Source: Octopus vulgaris (lineage: Eukaryota). Taken from it: a DNA stretch of 64,000 nt. Each line of letters begins with the position of its first letter. Position 1 is the first letter of the stretch. Made by a program: the position numbers and the translations under genes. Of the stretch, positions 4,790 to 40,061 are shown in pieces. The notes below the pieces were generated by a model. It was not told the DNA's origin and ran no database searches. It saw only the letters and a list, made by a program, of their open reading frames with translations. The stretch spans positions 27,590,001 to 27,654,000 of the forward strand of contig OX597830.1 of NCBI GenBank assembly GCA_951406725.2, given 5' to 3'.

Positions 4790-4934
4790 GTGTGTATATA
4801 TATATGCACATATATATGCATGTATATATTTTGTCAGATTTATTGCCCAGATCGAAGAAAAAATATCATCCCTACACGCATGCCAGCACCAGGATACACA
4901 GATGCATATATTCACATGTACATATATTTGCATA

Positions 4935-4970
<36 letters not shown>

Positions 4971-5109
4971 CATATAAACATATACGCACGTACACACATA
5001 CCTGCAGGAAATGCCGAAAATGATTTATATACGCAACTGAGTATATTGGTATATACACACATACATTCATTCGCGAGTGTATGTGCCTTTGCGTGTGTGT
5101 ATGTATATA

Positions 5110-5159
<50 letters not shown>

Positions 5160-5838
5160 CACATGTATATGTATGTATGTATGCATTTGTGTGTGTACAT
5201 CTGTGTGTGTATTTATTGAAGGAATTTTATGAAAGTGTAAATATGTGTACGCGATTACGCACACGCAAGAACACAAAATCACACACATATGCGTATGCCT
5301 TGGAATGCGTACGTGCGTCTTTCTATTTGAACATGCGCAAGGGCCTCTGTACGCGTTAATATGTACGTGTGTGTTTTACGTGTCAGTGTGCCTGTGCGTG
5401 TGCGTACGTATCTATGTGTGACTGTGTGTGTGTGAGTGTGTTTGTGTGTGTGCAGGTGTGTGTGTGTGTGTGTACCGAAGCATATGAAATTATGCTAGTA
5501 TTTGACCATAAACTTAGATGATCACGGTCTATAAACATGTCCAGAAACAATAATACATAGTCAAATAGATTAGTCCTTAGCTGGACACACACGCACTCGC
5601 ACACTCACACACACACACACACACATACATACACACACATACTCACATAGACACTCACGAGCACATACGATCATGTGTATAATCACATACAAACAAACCC
5701 TTCTGCAGTAATGGTTATGCATACATTTTTGTGTATGTATATGAATATGTTTAACTTCCGTGGAGTGTTCATGTTTGCGCGCGCGTGGGCGCATTAATGG
5801 CGGTTGGTTGGCTGGTTGGCGTGTGCGTGTGTGTGTAT

Positions 5839-5870
<32 letters not shown>

Positions 5871-6136
5871 TTATGTTGGTGGTCTATTGCTATCAGAGCT
5901 CTCGTGCATATCTAATCACAAATACACTGAAAAATACGATCTTGTATACCACTTACAGTCATAAACACAAATCAACATACACGTTGCTCAAACTACATCG
6001 CAGTTATTAATATCTACTTCGATGTATAGATCTCCCACACCTAAAATATCGTAAATACATACACACACACAGACACACACACACACAGACACACACACAC
6101 ACACACACACGTACACACATACAAACACACACATAT

Positions 6137-6320
6137 ATTCTTTATTCTTTTATTGTAGTCACTTGACTGCGGCCCCAGGACTTATTCTTTGTAAGCATAG
6201 TACTTACTATATCGGTCACTTTTGCCAAACCGCTAGGTTACGGGGACGTAAACACACCGCCATCTTTTGTTAAGCGATGGTGAGGGAACAAAGACAGACA
6301 TTCAAACACACGGACATACA

Positions 6321-6400
<80 letters not shown>

Positions 6401-6560
6401 CGGGTTTCTTTCAGTTGCCGTCTACCAAATCCACCCACAAGGCTTTAGTCGGCCCGTGGCTATATTAGAAGACACTTGTCTAAGGTGTCACGCAGTGGGA
6501 CTGAACTTGGGACTATGTGGTTGAGAAGCAAGCATCTTATCACGCAGAGTGCATGCGCCT
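6137..6560 (-). mobile_element. SINE family A (tRNA-derived, CORE-like), with internal (CA)n
   Basis: Reverse complement gives a tRNA-like head, a CORE-like CACCTT(A/G)G(A/G)CAAGTGTCTT block, and the tail shared with the copies at 9716, 18050 and 20123. Confidence 0.85.
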
Positions 6561-6605
6561 TTTATATGTATATATACATATACATACACACACACACATA
6601 CATAT

Positions 6606-7242
6606 ACGATGAAAACGAAATTATTTCTCCTCGGTGGAATTTGAACGTAGAGCCGGCACAAATGTCCAACGTATTGTATACGATACTATAACAAGAGGAG
6701 AAAATTCTATTTCACCCCACATATGGGGGGAGGAAATTGACAAGAGCTTGGGTGTGTGGGTTGCCGCCCGGAATATAGCCCGAATGGATAGAAGACACTA
6801 TCCGTCGTTGTCTGGGTGGCAAGAGAGCCAAGCTCTTGAATGTCAAAATTCTGCCTGCGGCTGATTGGGTGGGGTCGAAAGCAGTTTTGACCCTGTGGAC
6901 CCAATCAGCCGATAATCTGGTTTTTCCAGATTTTTTTAGGATGACCGGGTGCAGGTATTCGGTGATTCTTGAGGGTTGCGCCCCTAGTTGTCATCAGTGC
7001 CTGGATCCTGACCATATAAAGAAAAACTGTCCTCAGGAACAAAGCAAAGTCCTGGAGCAGTTGATGGAGACTTCTGTAGCAGAAGGAACGAAGGCGGCCG
7101 AGGAGACGGAGGACTCCTCGAAGAAGGGCCGCAAGGTGAGCAATAATGGGTGCTCACCGATGGATCCTAGGGATGAGGGAGGGGAGGCGAATCTCCCGGT
7201 CACGGATGAGACGCACCCTCCCCCAGATGAGAAGAAAAAAAA
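6606..7242 (+). mobile_element. LINE (Tx1/L1-like) ORF1 fragment with a gag-like zinc knuckle
   Basis: GC-richer island. ORF 6836-7264 contains CHQCLDPDHIKKNC (CX2CX4HX4C) followed by an acidic/basic low-complexity tail. Confidence 0.7.
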
Positions 7243-7429
7243 TATATTATATATATTGAAATAAACACACGTAAGTGCATATATGACATCCTGTTTTATT
7301 TCCCTATAGGTATGTTTTCCTGAAACTAAGTGAAACCATGGGAAGCCAACTTCCTAACTAATCAGCTATCCCTGCGCATATTCATATATTTAATATTTTC
7401 ATAAATAAATAGATATTAATAATGGTTGC

Positions 7430-7620
7430 AAAGCTAAGGATAGCAATATTACGGGATTAGATTACATCGACCAAAGTGTTCAATTGGTACTTATTTTATC
7501 GATGCTGGAATTATGAAAGCAATGTCGACCTGGGTGGCATTTGAACTCGTAGCGTAAATACGGTCGAAATGCCGATACACATTTTGTCCGGCGTGCTAAT
7601 GATTCAGCCAGCTCCTGCCT
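7430..7620 (-). mobile_element. SINE family B copy (diverged)
   Basis: Homologous to 7750-7936 and 8062-8272 (GGTACTTATTTTATCG...ATTTGAACTC...GGCGTGCTAATGATTCAGCCAGCTC). Confidence 0.8.
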
Positions 7621-7749
7621 TAAATAAGCTGTTTATAATGTTGCTATTTGATCAGTGTTTTTTTTAAAATCTAAAGTCAACAGCGTGTGAACCGGTGCAT
7701 GAGGAATGGTGTACTTTCTCCTCCATGACAACCGCTAATGCTACATCAC

Positions 7750-7936
7750 CAAATTTGAGGGTAGGGGGATAGTCCATTATATCGACCCCAGTACGCAACT
7801 GGTACTTAATTTATCGACCCCGAAAGGATGAAAGGCAAAGTAGACCTCGGTGGAATTTGAATTCAGAACGTAAAGACGGGTGAAATACCGCTAACCATTT
7901 CGCCCGACGTGCTAATGATTCAGCCAACTTGCCGCC
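7750..7936 (-). mobile_element. SINE family B copy
   Basis: ATCGACCCCGAAAGGATGAAAGGCAAAGT...GGAATTTGA motif, with a B-box-like sequence on the minus strand. Confidence 0.85.
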
Positions 7937-7996
7937 TCAGTAATAATAATGATGATGATGATGATGATGGTGATAATGATAATGATAATAATAATG

Positions 7997-8051
<55 letters not shown>

Positions 8052-8061
8052 TAATAATAAT

Positions 8062-8272
8062 CCTTTCCGCTAAAGGCACAAGGCCTAAAATTTGAGGGCA
8101 GTGGGTGGTCGATTATATTGACTCCAGTACTCAACTGGTACGTAATATATCGACCCCCGAAAGGATGAAAGGCAAAGTCAACCTCGGCGGAATTTGAACT
8201 CAGAACGCAAAGACGGACAAAATACTGCTAAGCATTTCGCCCGACGTGCTAACGATTCTGCCAGCTCGTCGC
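8062..8272 (-). mobile_element. SINE family B copy with (ATT)n tail
   Basis: Full head-to-tail match to the other B copies. Tail ...GGCCTTGTGCCTTTAGCGGAAAGG(ATT)n on the minus strand. Confidence 0.88.
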
Positions 8273-9654
8273 TTTGAGCCCCAGCAATAATCAAATTGAT
8301 TTAGCCAACAAAGTAGCCATTACATAAAGCACGAGTAGCGTTTTTGGAGAAGCGGGTCACATGAGACACGGATCATCATTTGGCGAGCTGCACTACTAAA
8401 AGAAATTCAAGGTAGTGTTCCTTGAGGTGTGCCATTAAGAGAATCCCGTGGGCCGCAGGTTGCCCATGATTGATGTGCATGGTCTCTCGATTTGGTAGAA
8501 ATAACAGACTCCATCTTAACACTGAAGATAAAACGATCGAAGGCAGCCAGCAAAATACGTAATAGCTATGACTGAAACACCTTTCATCATAAATGAACTC
8601 GATGAATGTTGACAAGAGAGTAAATACCATTATCACCGCCGCCGCCACTACCGCCACCACAACAAGCACAAGCAGCAGCAGCAGCAGCAGCAGAGACATC
8701 GACATCACCACCACCACTACAAACACTACCACCGCATTCTTCCTGTCACCACTGTCACCACTACCTTCATCACCACCACCATCATTGGAGCCTCAAGACT
8801 TGCCGCCTCGCTACCATCGCCGCCCCCACCATTGATGCCGCCAGCTACACGACGACGATGACGACGAACCACCTTACCCCCCACGCCCAACACCACCACC
8901 ACCACTACCACTCCCACCAGTCCTACCACCACCACTCCCACCAGTCCTACCACCACCACGCTCACCATTCTTGCCACCACCACTCCCACAACCACTCTCA
9001 CCACCACCACCACCACCACCTAAAACAACCACCGCCACCACCATCAGCAGTGTCAGCAGTACAAGCAACCAGTGCTTGTATGTATTTCAGTAGCACCGAT
9101 TTTGTAATGAAAGTTCCATTTGGAGGTTGGAAATCATCTGTTTTCGCCTTAAACCTTTAGAATTATCTGTACTGTATGAACGTCACACATTCTCATTTTC
9201 CTTCCGTTCACTAAAATATAGGTGTTAATTGTTGATGTGATTAGCAAAAAAAAAAAAGAAAAAAGAAAAAAAAGAAAGAAAAAACAACGAACAAAAGAAA
9301 CTAAAATACATCAATTTTCTTAAAAGGCGAAATCAAAACACTCACCAACATTCACAAACGTTCGTATATAGGCCGGGCCGATATGCATGTATAGAGTCAC
9401 TATATGCCATTATGTTATACACATGAACACACTTATACACATGCGCGTATAAACATGTGTACTGTACACGTGAAAGGAAGCAGCTGCCAAAACTTAATGG
9501 CTTATTGGTAAATCGTATTTCCGTTGGACATATCATATAACTGCTTCAAGTTTCTACTATTTGTCTGTTCTGCGAGCTAGTCTATTTACCATTCGTTGCT
9601 GCTGGCGGTGACTTGAATCTACTAACTAACTAACTAACTATGTATATATATATA

Positions 9655-9715
<61 letters not shown>

Positions 9716-10123
9716 TCTCTCTTTTACTCTTTTACTTGTTTCAGTCATTTCAATGTGGCCATGCTGGAGCACCACATTTCGTCGAGTAAATCGACCCCGG
9801 GACTTATTCTTTGTAAGCCTAGTACTTATTCTATCGGGCTCTTTTGTTACAGGGACGTAGGCACACCAGCATCGGTTGTCAAGTTATATTGGGGGGGGGG
9901 GGGCAAACACAGACACACAAACTTATACACACTCATGTATATATGTATATACATATATAGGACGGGCTTCTTTCAGTTTCCGTCTATCAAATCCACTCAC
10001 AAGGCGTTGGTCGGCCCGAGGCTACAGTAGAACACACTTGCCCAAGGTGCAACGCAGTGGGACTGAACCTGGAACCATGTGGTTCGTAAGCAAGCTACTT
10101 ACCACACAGCCACTCCTCCGCCT
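9716..10123 (-). mobile_element. SINE family A, near full length
   Basis: Minus strand reads AGGCGGAGGAGTGGCTGTGTGGTAAG (A-box-like), GGTTCAGTCCC (B-box-like), CACCTTGGGCAAGTGT (CORE-like). Confidence 0.9.
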
Positions 10124-10150
10124 ATATCTATCTATCTATCTATCCGCCTA

Positions 10151-10294
<144 letters not shown>

Positions 10295-10387
10295 TGTATG
10301 TATGTATGTATGTATGGATATATGTTCTACAAACGACGAAGTAATCTTTCGAACGCAGTGTAGCCATTAAAAGAGCCCAAAGACTGT

Positions 10388-10522
10388 CTTGCTTCCCAAC
10401 CACATGATTCCGGGTTCAGTCCAACTGCGTGGCACCTTGGGTCAGTGTCTTCTACTATAGACTCAGTCCGATCAACGCCTTGTGAGTGGATTTGGTTGAC
10501 GGAAACTGAAAGATGCCCATCG
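10388..10522 (+). mobile_element. SINE family A, 5' half
   Basis: CCACATGATTCCGGGTTCAGTCC...GCACCTTGGG...GTGAGTGGATTTGG...GGAAACTGAAAG. Confidence 0.85.
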
Positions 10523-11071
10523 TATATATATATATATATATATATATAAATATAAGTATATATGTATCCATCTATATATATATATATGAAAGAAAGTTTG
10601 AAAATGCAATTTTAAAAGATGTTTATTTACTTTATCGGTTTCACTTTTTTTAGAAAAAGATTGTCAAAAGTAACATGTAAAAGCTTGGTTGTGCCTGGTA
10701 CTGGTTGTCACAAAATATTACAATTTACATATACATTCCTTGATAATAAGGACATGTTAAGAACAGCTTACAAGGGAAAATCTTGGGAAAATGTAAAATA
10801 GTTTAACAAGTTCATTAAAATACTGGGCACAAAAGATTACAACATATATATACACTCTCACGAAAATGTTAAAGGCAGTTTCCAGAAGGAATTATTAAAA
10901 AGTTCAGTGGAATATTGGTATTGTATATGTATATATATATACACACAGAGAATATTATAAGTTCAAAAAAGTTTACATTTTAGTAGTGGTAGCTTAAACT
11001 GACCTGGTTCACCATGTTATCGTAAAAAACAATTTTTTATTTCAAACACACCTACACTGTCCCACTGTAAG

Positions 11072-25863: not shown

Positions 25864-26456
25864 CTCTTCAGAGATCATGAAGAAAAAAAATGCTTTCTAA
25901 TTGACGTATCAATACCAGCAGATGACAAAGTTTCTCTAAAAGAAATGGAGAAACTTTCAAAATACAAAGACCTGGAAATAAAGGTAACTCGAATGTAGAA
26001 TCTAAAAACAGAAACAATTCCTATCATAGCAGGCGCATTAGGTATGATAAAAAATATTCAGACAAATACATAACAAAAACACCAGGACTTACAAATATAT
26101 ATAAGATACAGAAAATAGCACTACTAGGCACTGCACACATCCAACGCAAAACACTTTTAGTACAGTAACCATAAGAGCATCACAGTAAACCACAGCACAT
26201 ACCCAAGGCACACGTTCGGTAGTGCAGTGAAAGCACGTGATAAAAATAAAACTACTGAATGATAATAATAATAATAATACAGTAACCATAAGAGCATCAT
26301 AAGTGCAGTGAAAGCACGTGATAAAAATAAAACTACTGAATGATAATAATAATAATACAGTAACCATAAGAGCATCACAGTAAACCACAGCACATACCCA
26401 AGGCACACGTTCGGTAGTGCAGTGAAAGCACGTGATAAAAATAAAACTACTGAATG

Positions 26457-26460
<4 letters not shown>
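25864..26460 (+). mobile_element. R4/Dong-like RLE LINE 3' fragment in (TAA)n, with the 3' UTR present three times
   Basis: Translates RDHEEKKCFLIDVSIPADDKVSLKEMEKLSKYKDLEI...IPIIAGALG...IQKIALLGTAHI (RLE domain and C-terminus). Flanked by (AAT)n on both sides. Confidence 0.88.
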
Positions 26461-26533
<73 letters not shown>

Positions 26534-26547
26534 TATAATAATAATAA

Positions 26548-28480
26548 TTTCTTTATTAACACTAAGTATCACAAAAAAGTCATTGCGGATGGTACAAGAC
26601 GATACAATGTGGGGTCACATAAAATGAAGCGTGTAAATAGTGAAAATATTAACAAAATAAATTTTAACGACGGAAACTTCCCCCCAAAGAAAGAGGAGAC
26701 CTCACAAAACCCCAGTCACCCTAGCCACTAGGACAAATGCTCTCTTCACAAATGTTCTCTCCACAAATACTCTCTCCACATATGGTCTCTCCTCTTTCTT
26801 CAAACTACTAAGCCAGTTCACTCGGACCATTCTGGACACATTCACCTACCTTTCAATAAAATTGTTAGGAAGTAGTACTTCCTTCTCTAACCGCGCTTTC
26901 CTTTTCAAGTGAAAAAGTTGATGAGGGCTTGTCCAAAGAAGAAAGTATCTGTCTTCAGCCCTTTCTATCTTGGCCAACACACAACCTTTTCACTAAGTCC
27001 ATCAGACAAATAAACACTGCCTGAATGATCAGCTGACGGGACTTATATTTGGGAGGAAGAAGCTCTCTAAGTTTTTTAAGAAGAGGACGCTGTCAGCTCT
27101 TACAGAATTAAACTGACCAAAATCTAGAGCTAAGCCAAGGATTTCTGTAATGATAATAGTACTCTCAAGCCGAGGATTTCTGGAAATTGTCTATGGGCTC
27201 AGGCTCGAAAATCTTTCGGAACAGAACAGCCAACCGCTTCTTGATGACGCTCAGTTCCTCAGAGAACGCCGTCGCACTTGTCCGTCACTGAGCTTTTATA
27301 AAACGCCAAAGTGGAATTTCCACCTACCGTATTGCCCGATTGACAGAGGACTGTGAGCGCCTGACGATACTCTAGGTGCCAGGCATCCTGCCTCAACCTA
27401 CGCTTGATGCAGCTCAGTCAAATAGACGAGGTGTGGGAGAGCGAGTTTCATTTTCAGTCTTCTACCGCGCTTTTCATTTTGTAAGTTTTACTTTCTCCTT
27501 GCACCAGGAGCCATTCTAGTGGTTTCTAAAACTGTTTTCCTCGCTGGATAAGTTTTCACAGCCAGCTAAATCAGTAGCATTTGGAAGAGATACATTTGCA
27601 CAGTTGCGCATTTCTAAGCTGGTGGTCTGGTCGTCGGATGTAGATGAGGCTTTTCTCGGTTGCAATGGTGCAGGTGATGTTATTGTTTTTCTTGCGTGTG
27701 GTAGCGGTGCTTGCTACTGATGTTGACTGAATCTCTCCTGTTACTCTTGATGTAGTTGTTCTTTTGGATGCTGCTACACTTGGTACTTAATCTGGGGTTG
27801 TTGGTGCTTCTGTTCTTGCTTTTTATACTGTGGTTGTTATTGTGTTAGAGGTGTCTGCAGCAGCGGGAGATTTTCCTTTTCTTTGGATGGGGAAAAACGT
27901 CATTAATTGGTGTGCTTCGGCACAAATGTGACATCTTGGCTTTCTGCCCTTGACTACAACGAATAGCTGTATAATCTCAGTGAAGTTAACCAGGTAAGGG
28001 ATAGCTTCGATACCACCAAATTGGCGTGTATCAATAATTCCATTCCCTGATCAACTTTTCTTTCCCGCTCTGAGCACTCGGAGAATTATTGTTTTGTACT
28101 CCATGCCGTACAATACGGCTGCCACCAGCAAAGAGATCTCCAGTTCTGGTGGTACTTTTGTTATCTTTGTTTTAGTCACCCTCCGACCAAAGTATGTCGG
28201 AAGTAGCCACAATTTTTAACTTTTTAGGATTGCTGCTGCACTTTCTTTTGCTAATTCTTCAATTGGGAATCTCACATCAGCTGTGCCAAAACGTCTTCCA
28301 CGGGCGACGTTGGTGTCTATCTCCCAGACTGGTCTTAGACATTTTTCAATCTGGACCTGCGTCGCTCGTTCCAGAGTCCTGGTTTTCGTTGAAATACATT
28401 TGTATGTAATAGTTGGTTTCTAGTGTCTTATTGTTTTTCATCCTCCTTATTAGAAATACTAATCTACCATTTTTTCTCCG
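26548..28480 (-). mobile_element. Heavily decayed, internally deleted Tx1/L1-like LINE
   Basis: Minus strand ends in AATAAAGAAA(TTA)n at about 26548. ORF2 C-terminus-like sequence lies at 26800-27400. An ORF1-like stretch VVVKGRKPRCHICAEAH lies near 27910-27965. Confidence 0.55.
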
Positions 28481-28839: not shown

Positions 28840-29145
28840 AGTGAGAGCAGTGCAAGCCATTGAAGTGACACTGGGGTAAAATATACGAAACCCAGTGTAC
28901 CCATCATAACTATCTGTATGTTAAGAATACACCAGGCACATGCCTCACACCATCCTCATCATCTAAGTATACCGGACAGAATGCTTCGTGATATTTCTTC
29001 CTGCTTTACGTTCTGAGTTTAGTTTCTGTCGAGGGGGACTTTTCACCATTTCAGAGTCAATAAATTGTTGGACTCTCAGTGTCGAGAACCGGGGCAATTT
29101 GCCCACCACAAATTTCAGGTTTTGAGCCTATAATAGAAGGAATTG
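28840..29145. mobile_element. Adjacent SINE fragments (unclassified tail at 28840-28955, diverged family B at 28960-29145)
   Basis: TTTACGTTCTGAGTT and CAAATTTCAGG..GCCTATAATAGAAGGA match family B. Confidence 0.5.
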
Positions 29146-36683: not shown

Positions 36684-36738
<55 letters not shown>

Positions 36739-36857
36739 ATAATAATAATAATAATGATGATGATGATGATGATAATAATAATAATAATGATGGTGATACT
36801 AATAATAATAATAATGATAATGATGATGATGATGATGATAATAATAATAATAATAAT

Positions 36858-37332
36858 CGATCAGACATAGTCATTGCAGACAGCGAAGAAAATACTTGTA
36901 GATTAATAGATGCAGGCGTTCCCACTGATAAAAATATATCTTTAAAGGAATTTGACAAATTGAGTAAATATAAGGAACTGGAAATTGAAATACAAAAGAT
37001 GTGGCATCTTAAAGTGAGAACTGTTCCTGTTATTGAAGGTGCCCTAGGTATGAAAAAAAAGAGATTCAGAAACATCAAGATAGCATCTCAGGAGAACCAT
37101 GTCTCAGAGAAATCCAAAAGTATGTTCCGGCAAGTACTGTCCACATCCTTAGAAAAACCTTATCAATTTAAATGTATGTGTTGTATTACATGAAGACAAT
37201 TCGTTACTTACCCCGGCTAATTCCCTCCTCAAGCTTTCAACGATACTGTAGCATCTCTTATCCTTCACTTGCCCTAGGACGCTGGGTGTATCTTGGCAAG
37301 TGATTGTTACAAACATGCAGATTAAAAGTAAA

Positions 37333-37335
<3 letters not shown>
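36858..37335 (+). mobile_element. R4/Dong-like RLE LINE 3' fragment (second subfamily) in (TAA)n
   Basis: RSDIVIADSEENTCRLIDAGVPTDKNISLKEFDKLSKYKELEIEIQKMWHLKVRTVPVIEGALG (RPD..D..K..KY-type RLE motif). Its 3' UTR differs from the 25864 copy and runs into (TAC)n(TAA)n. Confidence 0.88.
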
Positions 37336-37411
<76 letters not shown>

Positions 37412-37631
37412 TCTTTCTACTATAGGCACACGGCCTGGATTTTGTGGGGAGGGGGACAGTCGATCACATCGACTCCAGTATTCATCTGGTACTTAATTTA
37501 TTGAACCCGAAAGGATGAAAGGGAAAGTTGACCGCGGTGCAATTTGAACTCAAAACGTAGCGACGGACGAAAAACCGGTAGGCATTTCGGCCGGCGTGCT
37601 AACGATTCTGCCAGTTGCCAGTTCGCTGCCT
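37412..37631 (-). mobile_element. SINE family B copy
   Basis: GAAAGGATGAAAGG...ATTTGAACTC...GGCGTGCTAACGATTCTGCCAG. Confidence 0.85.
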
Positions 37632-37690
37632 TAATAATGATAACAACAACAACAATAATAATAATAATAATAATAATGATAATAATAATG

Positions 37691-37753
<63 letters not shown>

Positions 37754-37755
<2 letters not shown>

Positions 37756-38414
37756 CACCGGGGGACTTTTAAAGAGAACACCGGGGGACTTTTAAAGAGA
37801 ACACCGGGGGACTTTTAAAGGAGAACACCGGGGGACTTTTAAAGAGAACACCGGGGGACTTTTAAAGAGAACACCGGGGGACTTTTAAAGGAGAACACCG
37901 GGGGACTTTTAAAGAGAACACCGGGGGACTTTTAAAGAGAACACCGGGGGACTTTTAAAGAGAACACCGGGGGACTTTTAAAGGAGAACACCGGGGGACT
38001 TTTAAAGAGAACACCGGGGGACTTTTAAAGGAGAACACCGGGGGACTTTTAAAGAGAACACCGGGGGACTTTTAAAGAGAACACCGGGGGACTTTTAAAG
38101 AGAACACCGGGGGACTTTTAAAGGAGAACACCGGGGACTTTTAAGGAGAACACCGGGGGACTTTTAAGAGAACACCGGGGGACTTTTAAGGAGAACACCG
38201 GGGGACTTTTAAAGAGAACACCGGGGGACTTTTAAGAGAACACCGGGGGACTTTTAAGAGAACACCGGGGGACTTTTAAGGAGAACACCGGGGGACTTTT
38301 AAGAGAACACCGGGGGACTTTTAAGAGAACACCGGGGGACTTTTAAGAGAACACCGGGGGACTTTTAAGAGAACACCGGGGGACTTTTAAGAGAACACCG
38401 GGGGACTTTTAAGA
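37754..38414 (+). repeat. Minisatellite: 29 tandem units of AACACCGGGGGACTTTTAA(A)G(G)AG (22-24 bp)
   Basis: Counted directly. There are no spacers, and the last unit continues into the LINE 5' region. Confidence 0.97.
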
Positions 38415-39140
38415 TGTAAGAAGGAAAATTCAGAGCTCCGAAACCTATCCACAAACATCGAAAACAAGGACATCCTATGGAGCCAAAGTTTTACTAACAA
38501 AGAATTGGACTGTATCCGAGTAAGTAATACAAACTGAAATTTATTACTATTTTCGAAACGAAATGATGTATTTTGACTCGATATCATCTCCACCTCTAAC
38601 GCAACACATGTAAACATGCGTGAAACATCACGATCATCTCCGACCCCAAACACCATGTACAAAGGAACTACGAAGAAATTAAATGCCACCGATACTATTC
38701 AACCCAAGAATAACAATCGAGCGGTACGTACATTAAACCTACAACAAAAAATGTACGGAAAACTACACGTGCGAAATAATGTGACAACAGAAATAAACGG
38801 GCCGGTACCCTACGAAAATGACGACCGTCAAAATAATGGGCCGGACGTTGTACCTCATGTCCCGCAAATAAAACCCAAAAGACGTAAATGGACACGTGAG
38901 GAATACATTTCTATCTTACACGCATACTTCACAGCAGTACTCTACCCAAAAAATGAAAATACAACAACACATATACAGAAAATTGCACTACTGGGCACTG
39001 CACACATCCTACGCAGAACACTTTCCATACAATAACCATCAGAGCATCACAACAAATCACAGCACATACCCAAGGCACACAGAGCTGCGCTCGGTAGTGA
39101 AGTGAAAGCACGCTATAAAAATAAAAATAAAACTACTGAA
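38394..39140 (+). mobile_element. Internally deleted R4/Dong-like non-LTR element (5' region + N-terminus fused to C-terminus + 3' UTR), in (TAA)n
   Basis: ORF 38616-39035 has Myb-like KRRKWTREE..IL.AY joined to IQKIALLGTAHILRRTL. The 3' UTR (CACAGCACATACCCAAGGCACAC...AAAACTACTGAA(TAA)n) closely matches that of 25864-26460. Confidence 0.85.
38616..39035 (+). CDS. 139-aa open fusion ORF of the deleted retroelement (no RT, no endonuclease); expression unknown
   Basis: True ATG at 38616, no stops, ends at the element's native stop. Confidence 0.4.
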   Translation: MRETSRSSPTPNTMYKGTTKKLNATDTIQPKNNNRAVRTLNLQQKMYGKLHVRNNVTTEINGPVPYENDDRQNNGPDVVPHVPQIKPKRRKWTREEYISILHAYFTAVLYPKNENTTTHIQKIALLGTAHILRRTLSIQ

Positions 39141-40061
39141 TAATAATAATAATAATAATGATGATGATTATGATGATGATGATGATGATAATAATAAGAA
39201 TAATAAATTCTAGATCTTACATACCTTGCAGACAAGTGATCTGCTTATCACATTGTATAAGTCAACTAGTTTTTATCTGGGAAATAACAATGCAAAACAA
39301 CCAAAGAAACAAACTAAAAACACCTCTCCGAAACAACAAACAAAAACCTACATCTGAATAAATCGATTAGTGACCAAAGGCAATGCACTTGATTAGGGTC
39401 CCAAAATTAGGGCTACAATGCATAAATCCTTCTTGTCCAAGTAAATCAAGAATGAATCTCTGAAATCGTTTTTGTCAAAAGATTGACATTAGCTATAAAA
39501 TGAAAATATAAAAAGATAAACAAAGAAATAAATAAAAAGAGAAAGAAAATGATATAAAATGGGAGGAGACGAATAGACTGACTTAATGCAATCAAACGGT
39601 CCGCTAGATATAGCAACCAAATTTACGACAAATCATATCCTGTCGCTCTCAAATAGCAAATATATATATATTGGTCATGTCATCCTAAATAAAAGATATT
39701 TGGAAACAAAAAGACAAAATGGTCCTAACTAGAACTCATACAACCATAGATAATTCTTTGGGGGGGGGGGAGTAACGGAACGGTGGATCTCGATGCAAAT
39801 AAAGCTATAAGTAACAGTGTGTAAATATTGGGTAGTGGACAGAAAAATATCCGAAGGCTACCGGAGGCACGCGAATCCACATTGCCTGTAAATATAAGAG
39901 GCGTTCTACAGTAAACAACTTACAGTCATAGTTTTTCTGGATCAGTTCTACCTTGGAAATCCTCATCAACAGCAGCAACAACAAACCAATAAAAAAGTTT
40001 GTATATGACCACTCGACGTGCTAGAAAGAGTAGTCAGAGCTTTATATCAAACAATACATTT

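What the first reader, a model, noticed from the sequence alone, without database searches (positions are those of the whole stretch)
37754..38414. First ~21 nt of a Dong/R4-like retroelement reiterated 29 times at its 5' junction (telomerase-like or promoter-monomer array)
Seen: the array sits exactly between the (TAA)n target tract and the element body. The last unit (AACACCGGGGGACTTTTAAGA) runs directly into the element's 5' region. Almost all unit variation is at the unit junction (AAGAG, AAAGAG, AAGGAG, AAAGGAG). It is polarised, with 22-mers next to the element and 23/24-mers distally, including a 23-23-24 higher-order period. Known: R2-group reverse transcriptases add non-templated nucleotides and template-jump at the RNA 5' end, and rodent L1s carry 5' monomer arrays that act as promoters. 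Inference: the array was seeded by reiterative copying of the RNA 5' end, or it is a self-renewing 5' promoter array of this family. Later slippage probably expanded it. The G5 runs could also form G-quadruplexes.
Basis: partly seen in the sequence, partly recalled or inferred. Interest (0 to 1): 0.8.

Follow-up and report, generated by a model that had tools for sequence, protein, structure and literature searches.

The report
Retrotransposon start copied 29 times
A broken jumping gene carries its own first 21 letters repeated 29 times in front of it; similar repeats show up in other sequencing runs but appear to mark only a few percent of the family's copies, likely because its copying enzyme restarts at the same end during insertion and DNA slippage likely lengthens the run later.

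Summary
There are 29 units at 37754-38414, between a (TAA)n tract and a Dong/R4-like LINE, and the last unit is the element's first 21 nt. The element is a dead copy: N-terminus joined to the last ~21 codons across an 11-nt overlap.

In three genomic-type runs the family is very abundant. Depth over a second unit is only 2-3% of body depth, so the array is not a family-wide promoter. Unit-unit junctions do occur in all four runs laid, with junction forms absent from this locus, so it is not a one-off or an artefact. Unit order is strongly blocked (p about 1e-5), pointing to DNA-level expansion rather than 29 enzyme cycles.

Best model (inferred): second-strand synthesis aborts after about 18-21 nt, adds purines and re-primes on the cDNA 3' end; slippage then expands the seed. 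Short multi-copy 5' reiterations are known for R2 (PMC3774820). One RNA-like run hints at a near-identical, array-bearing sister copy, so an inherited, transcribed sub-lineage is not excluded. New variant of a known kind.

The parts
37406..37635 (+). SINE-like dispersed repeat whose (TAA)n tail is the target tract
   Evidence: blastn finds 8 further matches in the window, 70-83% identity
37632..37754 (+). (TAA)n target tract, left flank
   Evidence: TRF period 3, 41 copies; sequence
37754..38126 (+). Distal block, units 1-16 (23- and 24-mers, three-A junction)
38127..38393 (+). Proximal block, units 17-28 (22- and 23-mers, two-A junction in 11 of 12)
38394..38414 (+). Unit 29, the first 21 nt of the element (5' terminus inferred)
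   Evidence: depth here is family-level, 54-59% of the body median; 495 nt from the conserved N-terminal motif, against 229-703 nt from the TAA tract in 9 of 11 relatives placed
38415..38615 (+). Rest of the 5' UTR (stops in all frames; start codon inferred near 38616)
38577..38983 (+). Open frame holding the N-terminal part of the LINE protein (KWTREEY motif)
   Evidence: 56% over 45 aa to P0016 residues 6-49, E 6e-11; 12 hits at E<=0.001
38973..38983 (+). 11-nt overlap at the internal deletion that removed RT and endonuclease
   Evidence: contigs of the 5' part align up to 38983, and 76-96 contigs per genomic-type run have loose ends before 38973
38973..39035 (+). Last ~21 codons of the ORF and its stop
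   Evidence: match to P0016 residues 1133-1157, the C-terminus
39036..39138 (+). 3' UTR
   Evidence: aligns with the 3' UTR of another copy at 26150-26470
39139..39206 (+). (TAA)n/(TGA)n tail and right flank

Best explanation
The array is the first ~21 nt of a (TAA)n-flanked, Dong/R4-like LINE repeated 29 times at the 5' junction of an internally deleted copy; it was likely seeded at insertion, when second-strand synthesis likely stalled after 18-21 nt, added a few purines and restarted on the cDNA 3' end, and it was likely lengthened afterwards by DNA slippage or unequal exchange. Shown: the anatomy, the blocked order of unit types, and other junction forms in other runs. Inferred: that only a few percent of copies carry a second unit (from summed contig depth), the strand and enzyme of the seeding step, and that the array is a by-product without function.
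For: (1) The left edge is fixed at the element's first base while the right edge varies. This locus has 4 junction forms. One search adds AAGAGAG (4 of 4 runs), AAGGGAG (2 of 4), a +A joint (X11, depth 67) and a depth-50 contig in X3 with at least 4 units of about 18-20 nt and its own core variant. (2) Only a minority of copies: first-bin depth over median body depth is 2.2%, 3.1% and 3.0% in X1, X3, X11. The bin at the other edge keeps 15-38% of its neighbour, so an edge effect alone does not explain this. X3 record 25 starts at 38395 with 24 unlike letters before it, i.e. a one-unit copy. (3) DNA-level expansion: A2/A3 order has 4 runs, p about 1e-5. (4) Known biochemistry: B. mori R2 RT jumps serially onto RNA or DNA templates, helped by a 1-nt pairing with the template's 3' end. 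It adds 1-5 untemplated nt, most with high dATP, jumps most with excess dGTP, and uses dYTP very poorly for such additions (PMC8594491). The cDNA 3' end is element base 1, and purines added to the top strand are what is seen. (5) Precedent: R2 5' junctions carry tandem copies of the RNA's 5'-most 13-28 nt in about 5% (flour beetle B) or about 10% (silkmoth) of junctions, some in three copies with extra letters between (PMC3774820). (6) Another copy in this window has its 3' UTR plus tail three times, so terminal reiteration also occurs at the other end.
Against: No other locus could be read whole, because no genome is held. Recurrence rests on short contigs, and longer alleles of one locus could supply part of the signal. 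Summed contig depth is not a copy number, and X1 and X3 were read only 76-80%. Most junction forms end in AG, which suggests one ancestral junction mutating in a purine run rather than independent additions; the reference also biases detection towards such forms. Overhangs above 2 nt inhibit jumping in vitro, yet several forms need 3-5 extra letters. Nothing shows why synthesis would stop at base 18-21. No loose ends at 38394 were among the rows shown (572 rows hidden), so a (TAA)n flank at other copies' 5' ends was not seen directly. In the RNA-like run X2 the second unit is at 31% of body depth, which favours inheritance. None of 10 relatives with a readable TAA-to-5' junction repeats its first 16 nt (12 tested, 2 had no tract).
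Confidence: 0.5

Rival explanations
1. One ancestral duplication in a master copy founded a young sub-lineage whose RNA includes several units. The array is inherited at each insertion and may act as a 5' buffer or as a stack of promoter/enhancer sites, like mouse L1 monomers on a tenth of the scale.
For: X2 (RNA is only a guess) holds a 300-nt contig identical to 38390-38684, including letters that are minority alleles in the genomic-type runs. It also holds a junction contig with AAGAGAG and contigs that continue past the deletion point, which suggests an undeleted sister about 99.6% alike. Second-unit depth there is 31% of body depth against 2-3%. Most junctions share a final AG. Each unit matches the insect kappaB consensus GGGRAYYYYY.
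Against: One run only, chosen for likeness to this locus; it may be DNA or intronic RNA, or an allele of this same locus. Contigs cannot show a start. Arrays also occur in X11, where the window's letter at 38534 is absent. The leftmost unit is complete, whereas mouse 5'-most monomers are typically cut (PMC6454616). 22 nt is far below the ~200-nt monomer. The kappaB match is one degenerate 10-mer picked after the fact, with 3 more matches elsewhere in the window (1.6 expected).
Confidence: 0.25
2. An ordinary minisatellite that arose after insertion, by local duplication of 21-22 nt beside an unstable (TAA)n tract, and was expanded by slippage with no part for the retroelement enzyme.
For: The blocked order shows DNA-level turnover. 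The window is very rich in tandem repeats (245 TRF rows). All variants at this locus are homopolymer changes. The unit contains a TAA-like word that could pair with the flank.
Against: The unit starts exactly at the element's first base. It contains at least one junction letter (G) found neither in the flank nor in the element's continuation. The same register recurs in 4 of 4 runs under two organism labels with at least 4 further junction forms.
Confidence: 0.17
3. All 29 units were written in one insertion event by telomerase-like repeated copying.
For: R2 RT crossed at least 10 templates in series in vitro. The extra G is about as frequent in both blocks (5 of 16 and 3 of 12, Fisher p=1).
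Against: Independent cycles predict mixed junctions, but the A2/A3 order is blocked at p about 1e-5. In the R2 junctions listed in PMC3774820 I counted at most three copies.
Confidence: 0.05
4. Assembly or long-read artefact.
For: All variants here are homopolymer-length changes, and the three longer junction forms were not listed.
Against: T4 is invariant and G5 is changed in only 1 of 28 complete units. Variants are ordered. Unit-unit junctions are present in 4 of 4 public runs.
Confidence: 0.03

Closest known systems
Dong elements (R4 clade, restriction-like endonuclease LINEs targeting TAA repeats; B. mori Dong, DongAg, DongBg)
   Same: (TAA)n on both sides; ends of a single ORF whose relatives have RT, a CCHC finger and a PD-D endonuclease motif. 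TAA targeting by Dong is stated in PMC3812793. Dong-R4 is the LINE group with most recent insertions (1129) in Octopus vulgaris (PMC13282606).
   Different: This copy has lost RT and endonuclease. No named Dong protein was available for a tree. The HDV-like 5' ribozyme shown for B. mori Dong was not found here. My searches found no 5' array described for Dong.
Tandem duplications at R2 5' junctions (Eickbush et al. 2013, PMC3774820)
   Same: A minority of copies carry the RNA's 5'-most ~13-28 nt in tandem, some in three copies with extra letters between.
   Different: There the repeated piece is 28S target sequence carried on the RNA, and the paper explains it by joining without annealing. Here it is element sequence, 29 copies long, with block structure.
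Serial template jumping by B. mori R2 RT (PMC8594491)
   Same: Jumps onto RNA or DNA templates guided by the template's 3' base, with purine-favoured untemplated additions.
   Different: In vitro each template is copied end to end. The model here needs a stop at base 18-21, which is not shown.
Mouse L1Md 5' monomer promoters (PMC6454616)
   Same: Tandem repeat at the 5' end of a LINE, with variable number.
   Different: Monomers are about 200 nt, typical of many promoters, additive in activity and cut at the 5'-most unit. Here units are 22-24 nt, appear in a few percent of copies, the first unit is whole, and activity is untested.
Short internally deleted elements (SIDEs) of R2 (passage in PMC3774820)
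   Same: Keeps 5' and 3' ends and lacks the coding core.
   Different: No evidence that this deleted form was itself copied; no listed contig bridges the deletion.

Membership tests
Dong / R4 clade LINE | Inserted in (TAA)n with a (TAA)n tail | tested here: met
   Tracts on both sides. Among relatives, 20 of 44 loci reaching the C-terminus have (TAA)4 within 450 nt, and 11 of 20 reaching the N-terminus have a TAA tract upstream.
Dong / R4 clade LINE | Single ORF with RT, CCHC finger and restriction-like endonuclease | tested here: inconclusive
   The core is deleted in this copy. Both ends match such proteins: P0016 has RVT_1 at E 1e-27 and R2 structures at E 1e-28. 52 of 120 long homologs are hit at both ends at a loose cut-off of E<=10.
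Dong / R4 clade LINE | RT phylogeny places it with named Dong/R4 elements | not testable with these tools
   No RT in this copy. None of the 120 homologs listed is named Dong or R4.
Dong / R4 clade LINE | HDV-like self-cleaving ribozyme at the 5' end | tested here: inconclusive
   No such Rfam match at E<=5. Folding z=0.09. My recalled descriptor found none here, but also none in 15 of 15 relatives, so it had no positive control.
L1-type 5' monomer promoter array | Array present in most full-length copies | tested here: not met
   Second-unit depth is 2-3% of body depth in 3 of 3 genomic-type runs; indirect measure.
L1-type 5' monomer promoter array | 5'-most monomer cut at an internal start site; unit about 200 nt | tested here: not met
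   The first unit is whole and units are 22-24 nt; one locus only.
L1-type 5' monomer promoter array | Additive promoter activity | not testable with these tools
   Needs reporter or CAGE data.
R2-type 5' junction reiteration | Repeat unit is the 5'-most stretch of the template, in a minority of copies, with extra letters between units | tested here: met
   the RNA 5' end itself is inferred, not mapped.
Telomerase-like processive repeat addition | Units written in one run from one template, so junction types are not clustered | tested here: not met
   Blocked order, p about 1e-5.
G-quadruplex-forming repeat | Four G-tracts with short loops | tested here: not met
   0 matches with loops up to 12 nt; G4Hunter mean 0.73, maximum 1.12.

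The most novel reading that the evidence does not exclude
A young, transcribed sub-lineage of this Dong-like LINE renews a 5' array of its own first 21 nt by enzyme re-priming at each insertion. Because every unit carries a kappaB-like site, the array works as a self-made, dose-adjustable promoter/enhancer: a retrotransposon that writes its own regulatory repeat in a telomerase-like way.
Probability: 0.1. Interest if true: 0.85.

Novelty: new variant of a known kind. Interest (0 to 1): 0.45.

Why it matters
How non-LTR retrotransposons start their second strand is called the greatest uncertainty of the R2 model (PMC3774820). A family this abundant, in which a few percent of copies appear to carry reiterated 5' ends with a fixed left edge, would give many natural records of that step. 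One long-read assembly could then test strand, stop point and added letters. It also shows a route by which a LINE end becomes a minisatellite. If the array is inherited and active, it would be a very small, independently evolved counterpart of mouse L1 monomers.

Tried and rejected

Exact motif scans found 0 matches in JGI metagenome contigs and 0 in viral contigs. This is no evidence either way for an animal repeat.

The first homolog search with the N-terminal piece found nothing, and Pfam found nothing on the two fragments.

No RNA holder was listed on record for the stretch. Eight holders are only guessed to be RNA, and I laid one of them.

No listed contig bridges the deletion or spans the whole stretch.

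An HDV-like ribozyme was not found, but the test lacked a positive control.

Tandem-unit folding is not unusual: 22% of 500 shuffled units fold at least as well. A G-quadruplex role was rejected.

The 16-bp x15 array in L006 lies before a 5'-truncated copy and is not its start. The single 12-mer near-match at 29034 is not in an element context.

The variant-location test on pooled junction forms gave p about 0.002 for 7 of 10, but only 0.13 for 2 of 3 at this locus alone. The pooled tally was counted by hand and is biased by the reference, so I do not rely on it.

Earlier findings of this scan: none.

Full report
OBSERVATION. The array is there as described. One search lists 29 unit starts from 37754 to 38394. 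The 28 complete units share a 17-nt core (27 of 28 identical; unit 17 has one G fewer) and end in AAAGAG (12), AAGAG (8), AAAGGAG (5) or AAGGAG (3). The first unit follows the (TAA)n tract 37632-37754 directly, and unit 29 runs into the element. Units 1-16 all have three A at the junction, against 1 of 12 for units 17-28; 4 runs has p about 1e-5 in 200,000 shuffles. The extra G is spread over both blocks (5 of 16, 3 of 12), and its spacing is only borderline regular (p=0.049), so the 23-23-24 period is weak. The motif occurs nowhere else in the window at up to 3 mismatches.

THE ELEMENT. Downstream lies a remnant of about 745 nt. Its frame 38577-39032 matches both extreme ends of a 1157-aa protein, P0016: residues 6-49 (E 6e-11) and 1133-1157. 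P0016 has RVT_1, a CCHC finger and a PD-D motif by inspection, and its solved relatives are R2 proteins. 52 of 120 long homologs are hit at both ends at a loose cut-off. In public contigs the 5' part aligns up to 38983 and the 3' part from 38973, with loose ends continuing on both sides, so RT and endonuclease were lost at an 11-nt overlap. Relatives share the target: 20 of 44 loci reaching the C-terminus and 11 of 20 reaching the N-terminus have TAA tracts there. Dong elements target TAA (PMC3812793, passage). The distance from unit 29 to the conserved N-terminal motif is 495 nt, within the 229-703 nt between tract and motif in 9 of 11 relatives placed, so unit 29 is likely the true 5' end. 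I call the element Dong/R4-like; clade membership by tree was not testable. The host looks like an octopus from the recalled look of its SINE and repeats; no call shows this. Dong-R4 is abundant and recently inserted in Octopus vulgaris (PMC13282606, first third of text and passages).

OTHER COPIES. No genome is held. I laid four of the 20 holder runs on 38372-39110, which has two units plus the body. In the genomic-type runs X1, X3 and X11 (two organism labels; X3's kind is not on record) the 5' body has summed depth mostly of 1e5 to 9e5, while low-depth contigs are at about 40-65. The bin over the second unit has 2.2%, 3.1% and 3.0% of the median body depth; the bin over unit 29 has 54-59%. 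The far edge bin keeps 15-38% of its neighbour, so this is more than an edge effect. The tool warns that summed depth is no copy number, and X1 and X3 were read to about 80% and 76%, so the fraction is rough. Most copies thus appear to have one unit.

Junctions nevertheless exist beyond this locus's forms. AAGAGAG appears in 4 of 4 runs (depth 7058, 611, 698, 18) and AAGGGAG in 2 of 4. X11 has a joint with one extra A, and X3 has a depth-50 contig with at least four shorter units carrying their own core change. Depth at the junction (4,900-11,000) is roughly 100 to 250 times a low-depth contig, against 28 junctions here. Longer alleles of one locus could explain part of that. The three longer junction forms of this locus were not listed, and loose ends at 38394 were not among the rows shown. 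None of 10 relatives with a readable junction repeats its first 16 nt, though such short-read contigs may collapse repeats.

A HINT THE OTHER WAY. X2, only guessed to be RNA, holds a contig identical to 38390-38684, including minority alleles, a junction contig, and contigs that go on past the deletion point. Its second-unit bin is 31% of the body median. This suggests a near-identical, undeleted, array-bearing sister or allele. It is one run, picked for likeness, and contigs show neither start nor strand.

MECHANISM. Shown: fixed left edge, right edge at base 18-21, zero to five purines between units, blocked order. Inferred: the seed. B. mori R2 RT jumps in series onto RNA or DNA templates, helped by a 1-nt pairing with the template's 3' base. 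It adds 1-5 untemplated nucleotides, most with dATP, jumps best with excess dGTP and uses dYTP very poorly for such additions (PMC8594491, passages and section 6). After first-strand synthesis the free template 3' end is the cDNA end, which is element base 1. A second strand that aborts near base 20, gains purines and restarts there gives exactly this register and purine joints on the top strand. First-strand stuttering would be expected to leave pyrimidines there, unless a cap is copied (recalled). Against it: overhangs above 2 nt inhibit jumping in vitro, most forms share a final AG, and no cause for the stop is known. The blocked order needs later duplication in DNA, so I favour a seed of a few units plus slippage (0.5). 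The rivals are an inherited sub-lineage (0.25), a plain minisatellite (0.17), one telomerase-like run (0.05) and artefact (0.03). A second copy at 25864-26548 carries its 3' UTR and tail three times with shared private letters, so the family's ends are prone to reiteration; DNA duplication could explain that case too.

KNOWN SYSTEMS. R2 junctions carry tandem copies of the RNA's 5'-most 13-28 nt in about 5-10% of junctions in two species, some listed with three copies (PMC3774820, passages, section 14 and first part of section 17). Passages of PMC2718515 and PMC11331408 describe untemplated letters, snap-back and extra-template junctions; I saw no long reiterations in those passages. Mouse L1 monomers are about 200 nt, additive and cut at the first unit (PMC6454616, passages); the two features testable here are not met. 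B. mori Dong has a 5' HDV-like ribozyme; my tests for one were inconclusive. Each unit matches the insect kappaB consensus (PMC11116330, one passage), a weak lead chosen after the fact. PMC4640811, PMC7650587 and PMC9115989 were seen as passages only and mention no such array there. Searches turned up no report of a 5' array in Dong/R4 elements. Repbase, Dfam, subscription papers and all supplements were not seen and may bear on novelty.

VERDICT. A real, recurrent but minority feature of a Dong-like LINE family, here on a dead copy. It works like R2 5'-junction reiteration carried to minisatellite length, and it is not a family-wide promoter array. New variant of a known kind, interest 0.45.

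Noticed in passing
window 25864-26548: A 5'-truncated copy of the same family, starting right after a (TAA)n tract, has its 3' UTR plus TAA tail three times in tandem. Both extra units start at the same place near the stop codon, and the middle one is internally deleted.
   Followed up: partly
window 36684-37754: Nested pile-up in one TAA-rich tract: a more distant Dong-like 3' fragment (36858-37335) with a (TAC)n(TAA)n tail, then a SINE, then the focal element in the SINE's tail.
   Followed up: partly
L007 84-168; L016, L019, L030, L036 first ~200 nt: Several Dong-like relatives begin with a tRNA-like head, in L016, L019 and L030 right after the microsatellite. Only L007 was called by ARAGORN and Rfam (1 of 6 loci scanned); the others are by eye.
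   Followed up: partly
L017 5' UTR; L018 341-435: L017 has a ~25-nt word dispersed about four times in its 5' UTR, and L018 has a 29-bp x3.3 tandem upstream of its ORF.
   Followed up: no
window 38417-38447; L001, L002 5' regions: A purine-rich word just after unit 29 resembles one in the 5' regions of L001 and L002 (by eye); possibly a conserved 5' UTR element.
   Followed up: no
window 38384-38393 and each unit: The 3' half of the 22-mer is nearly self-complementary as RNA, so neighbouring units can pair; folding is no better than shuffled units.
   Followed up: yes
L006 192-429: A 16-bp x15 minisatellite directly before a 5'-truncated relative, not derived from its start.
   Followed up: partly
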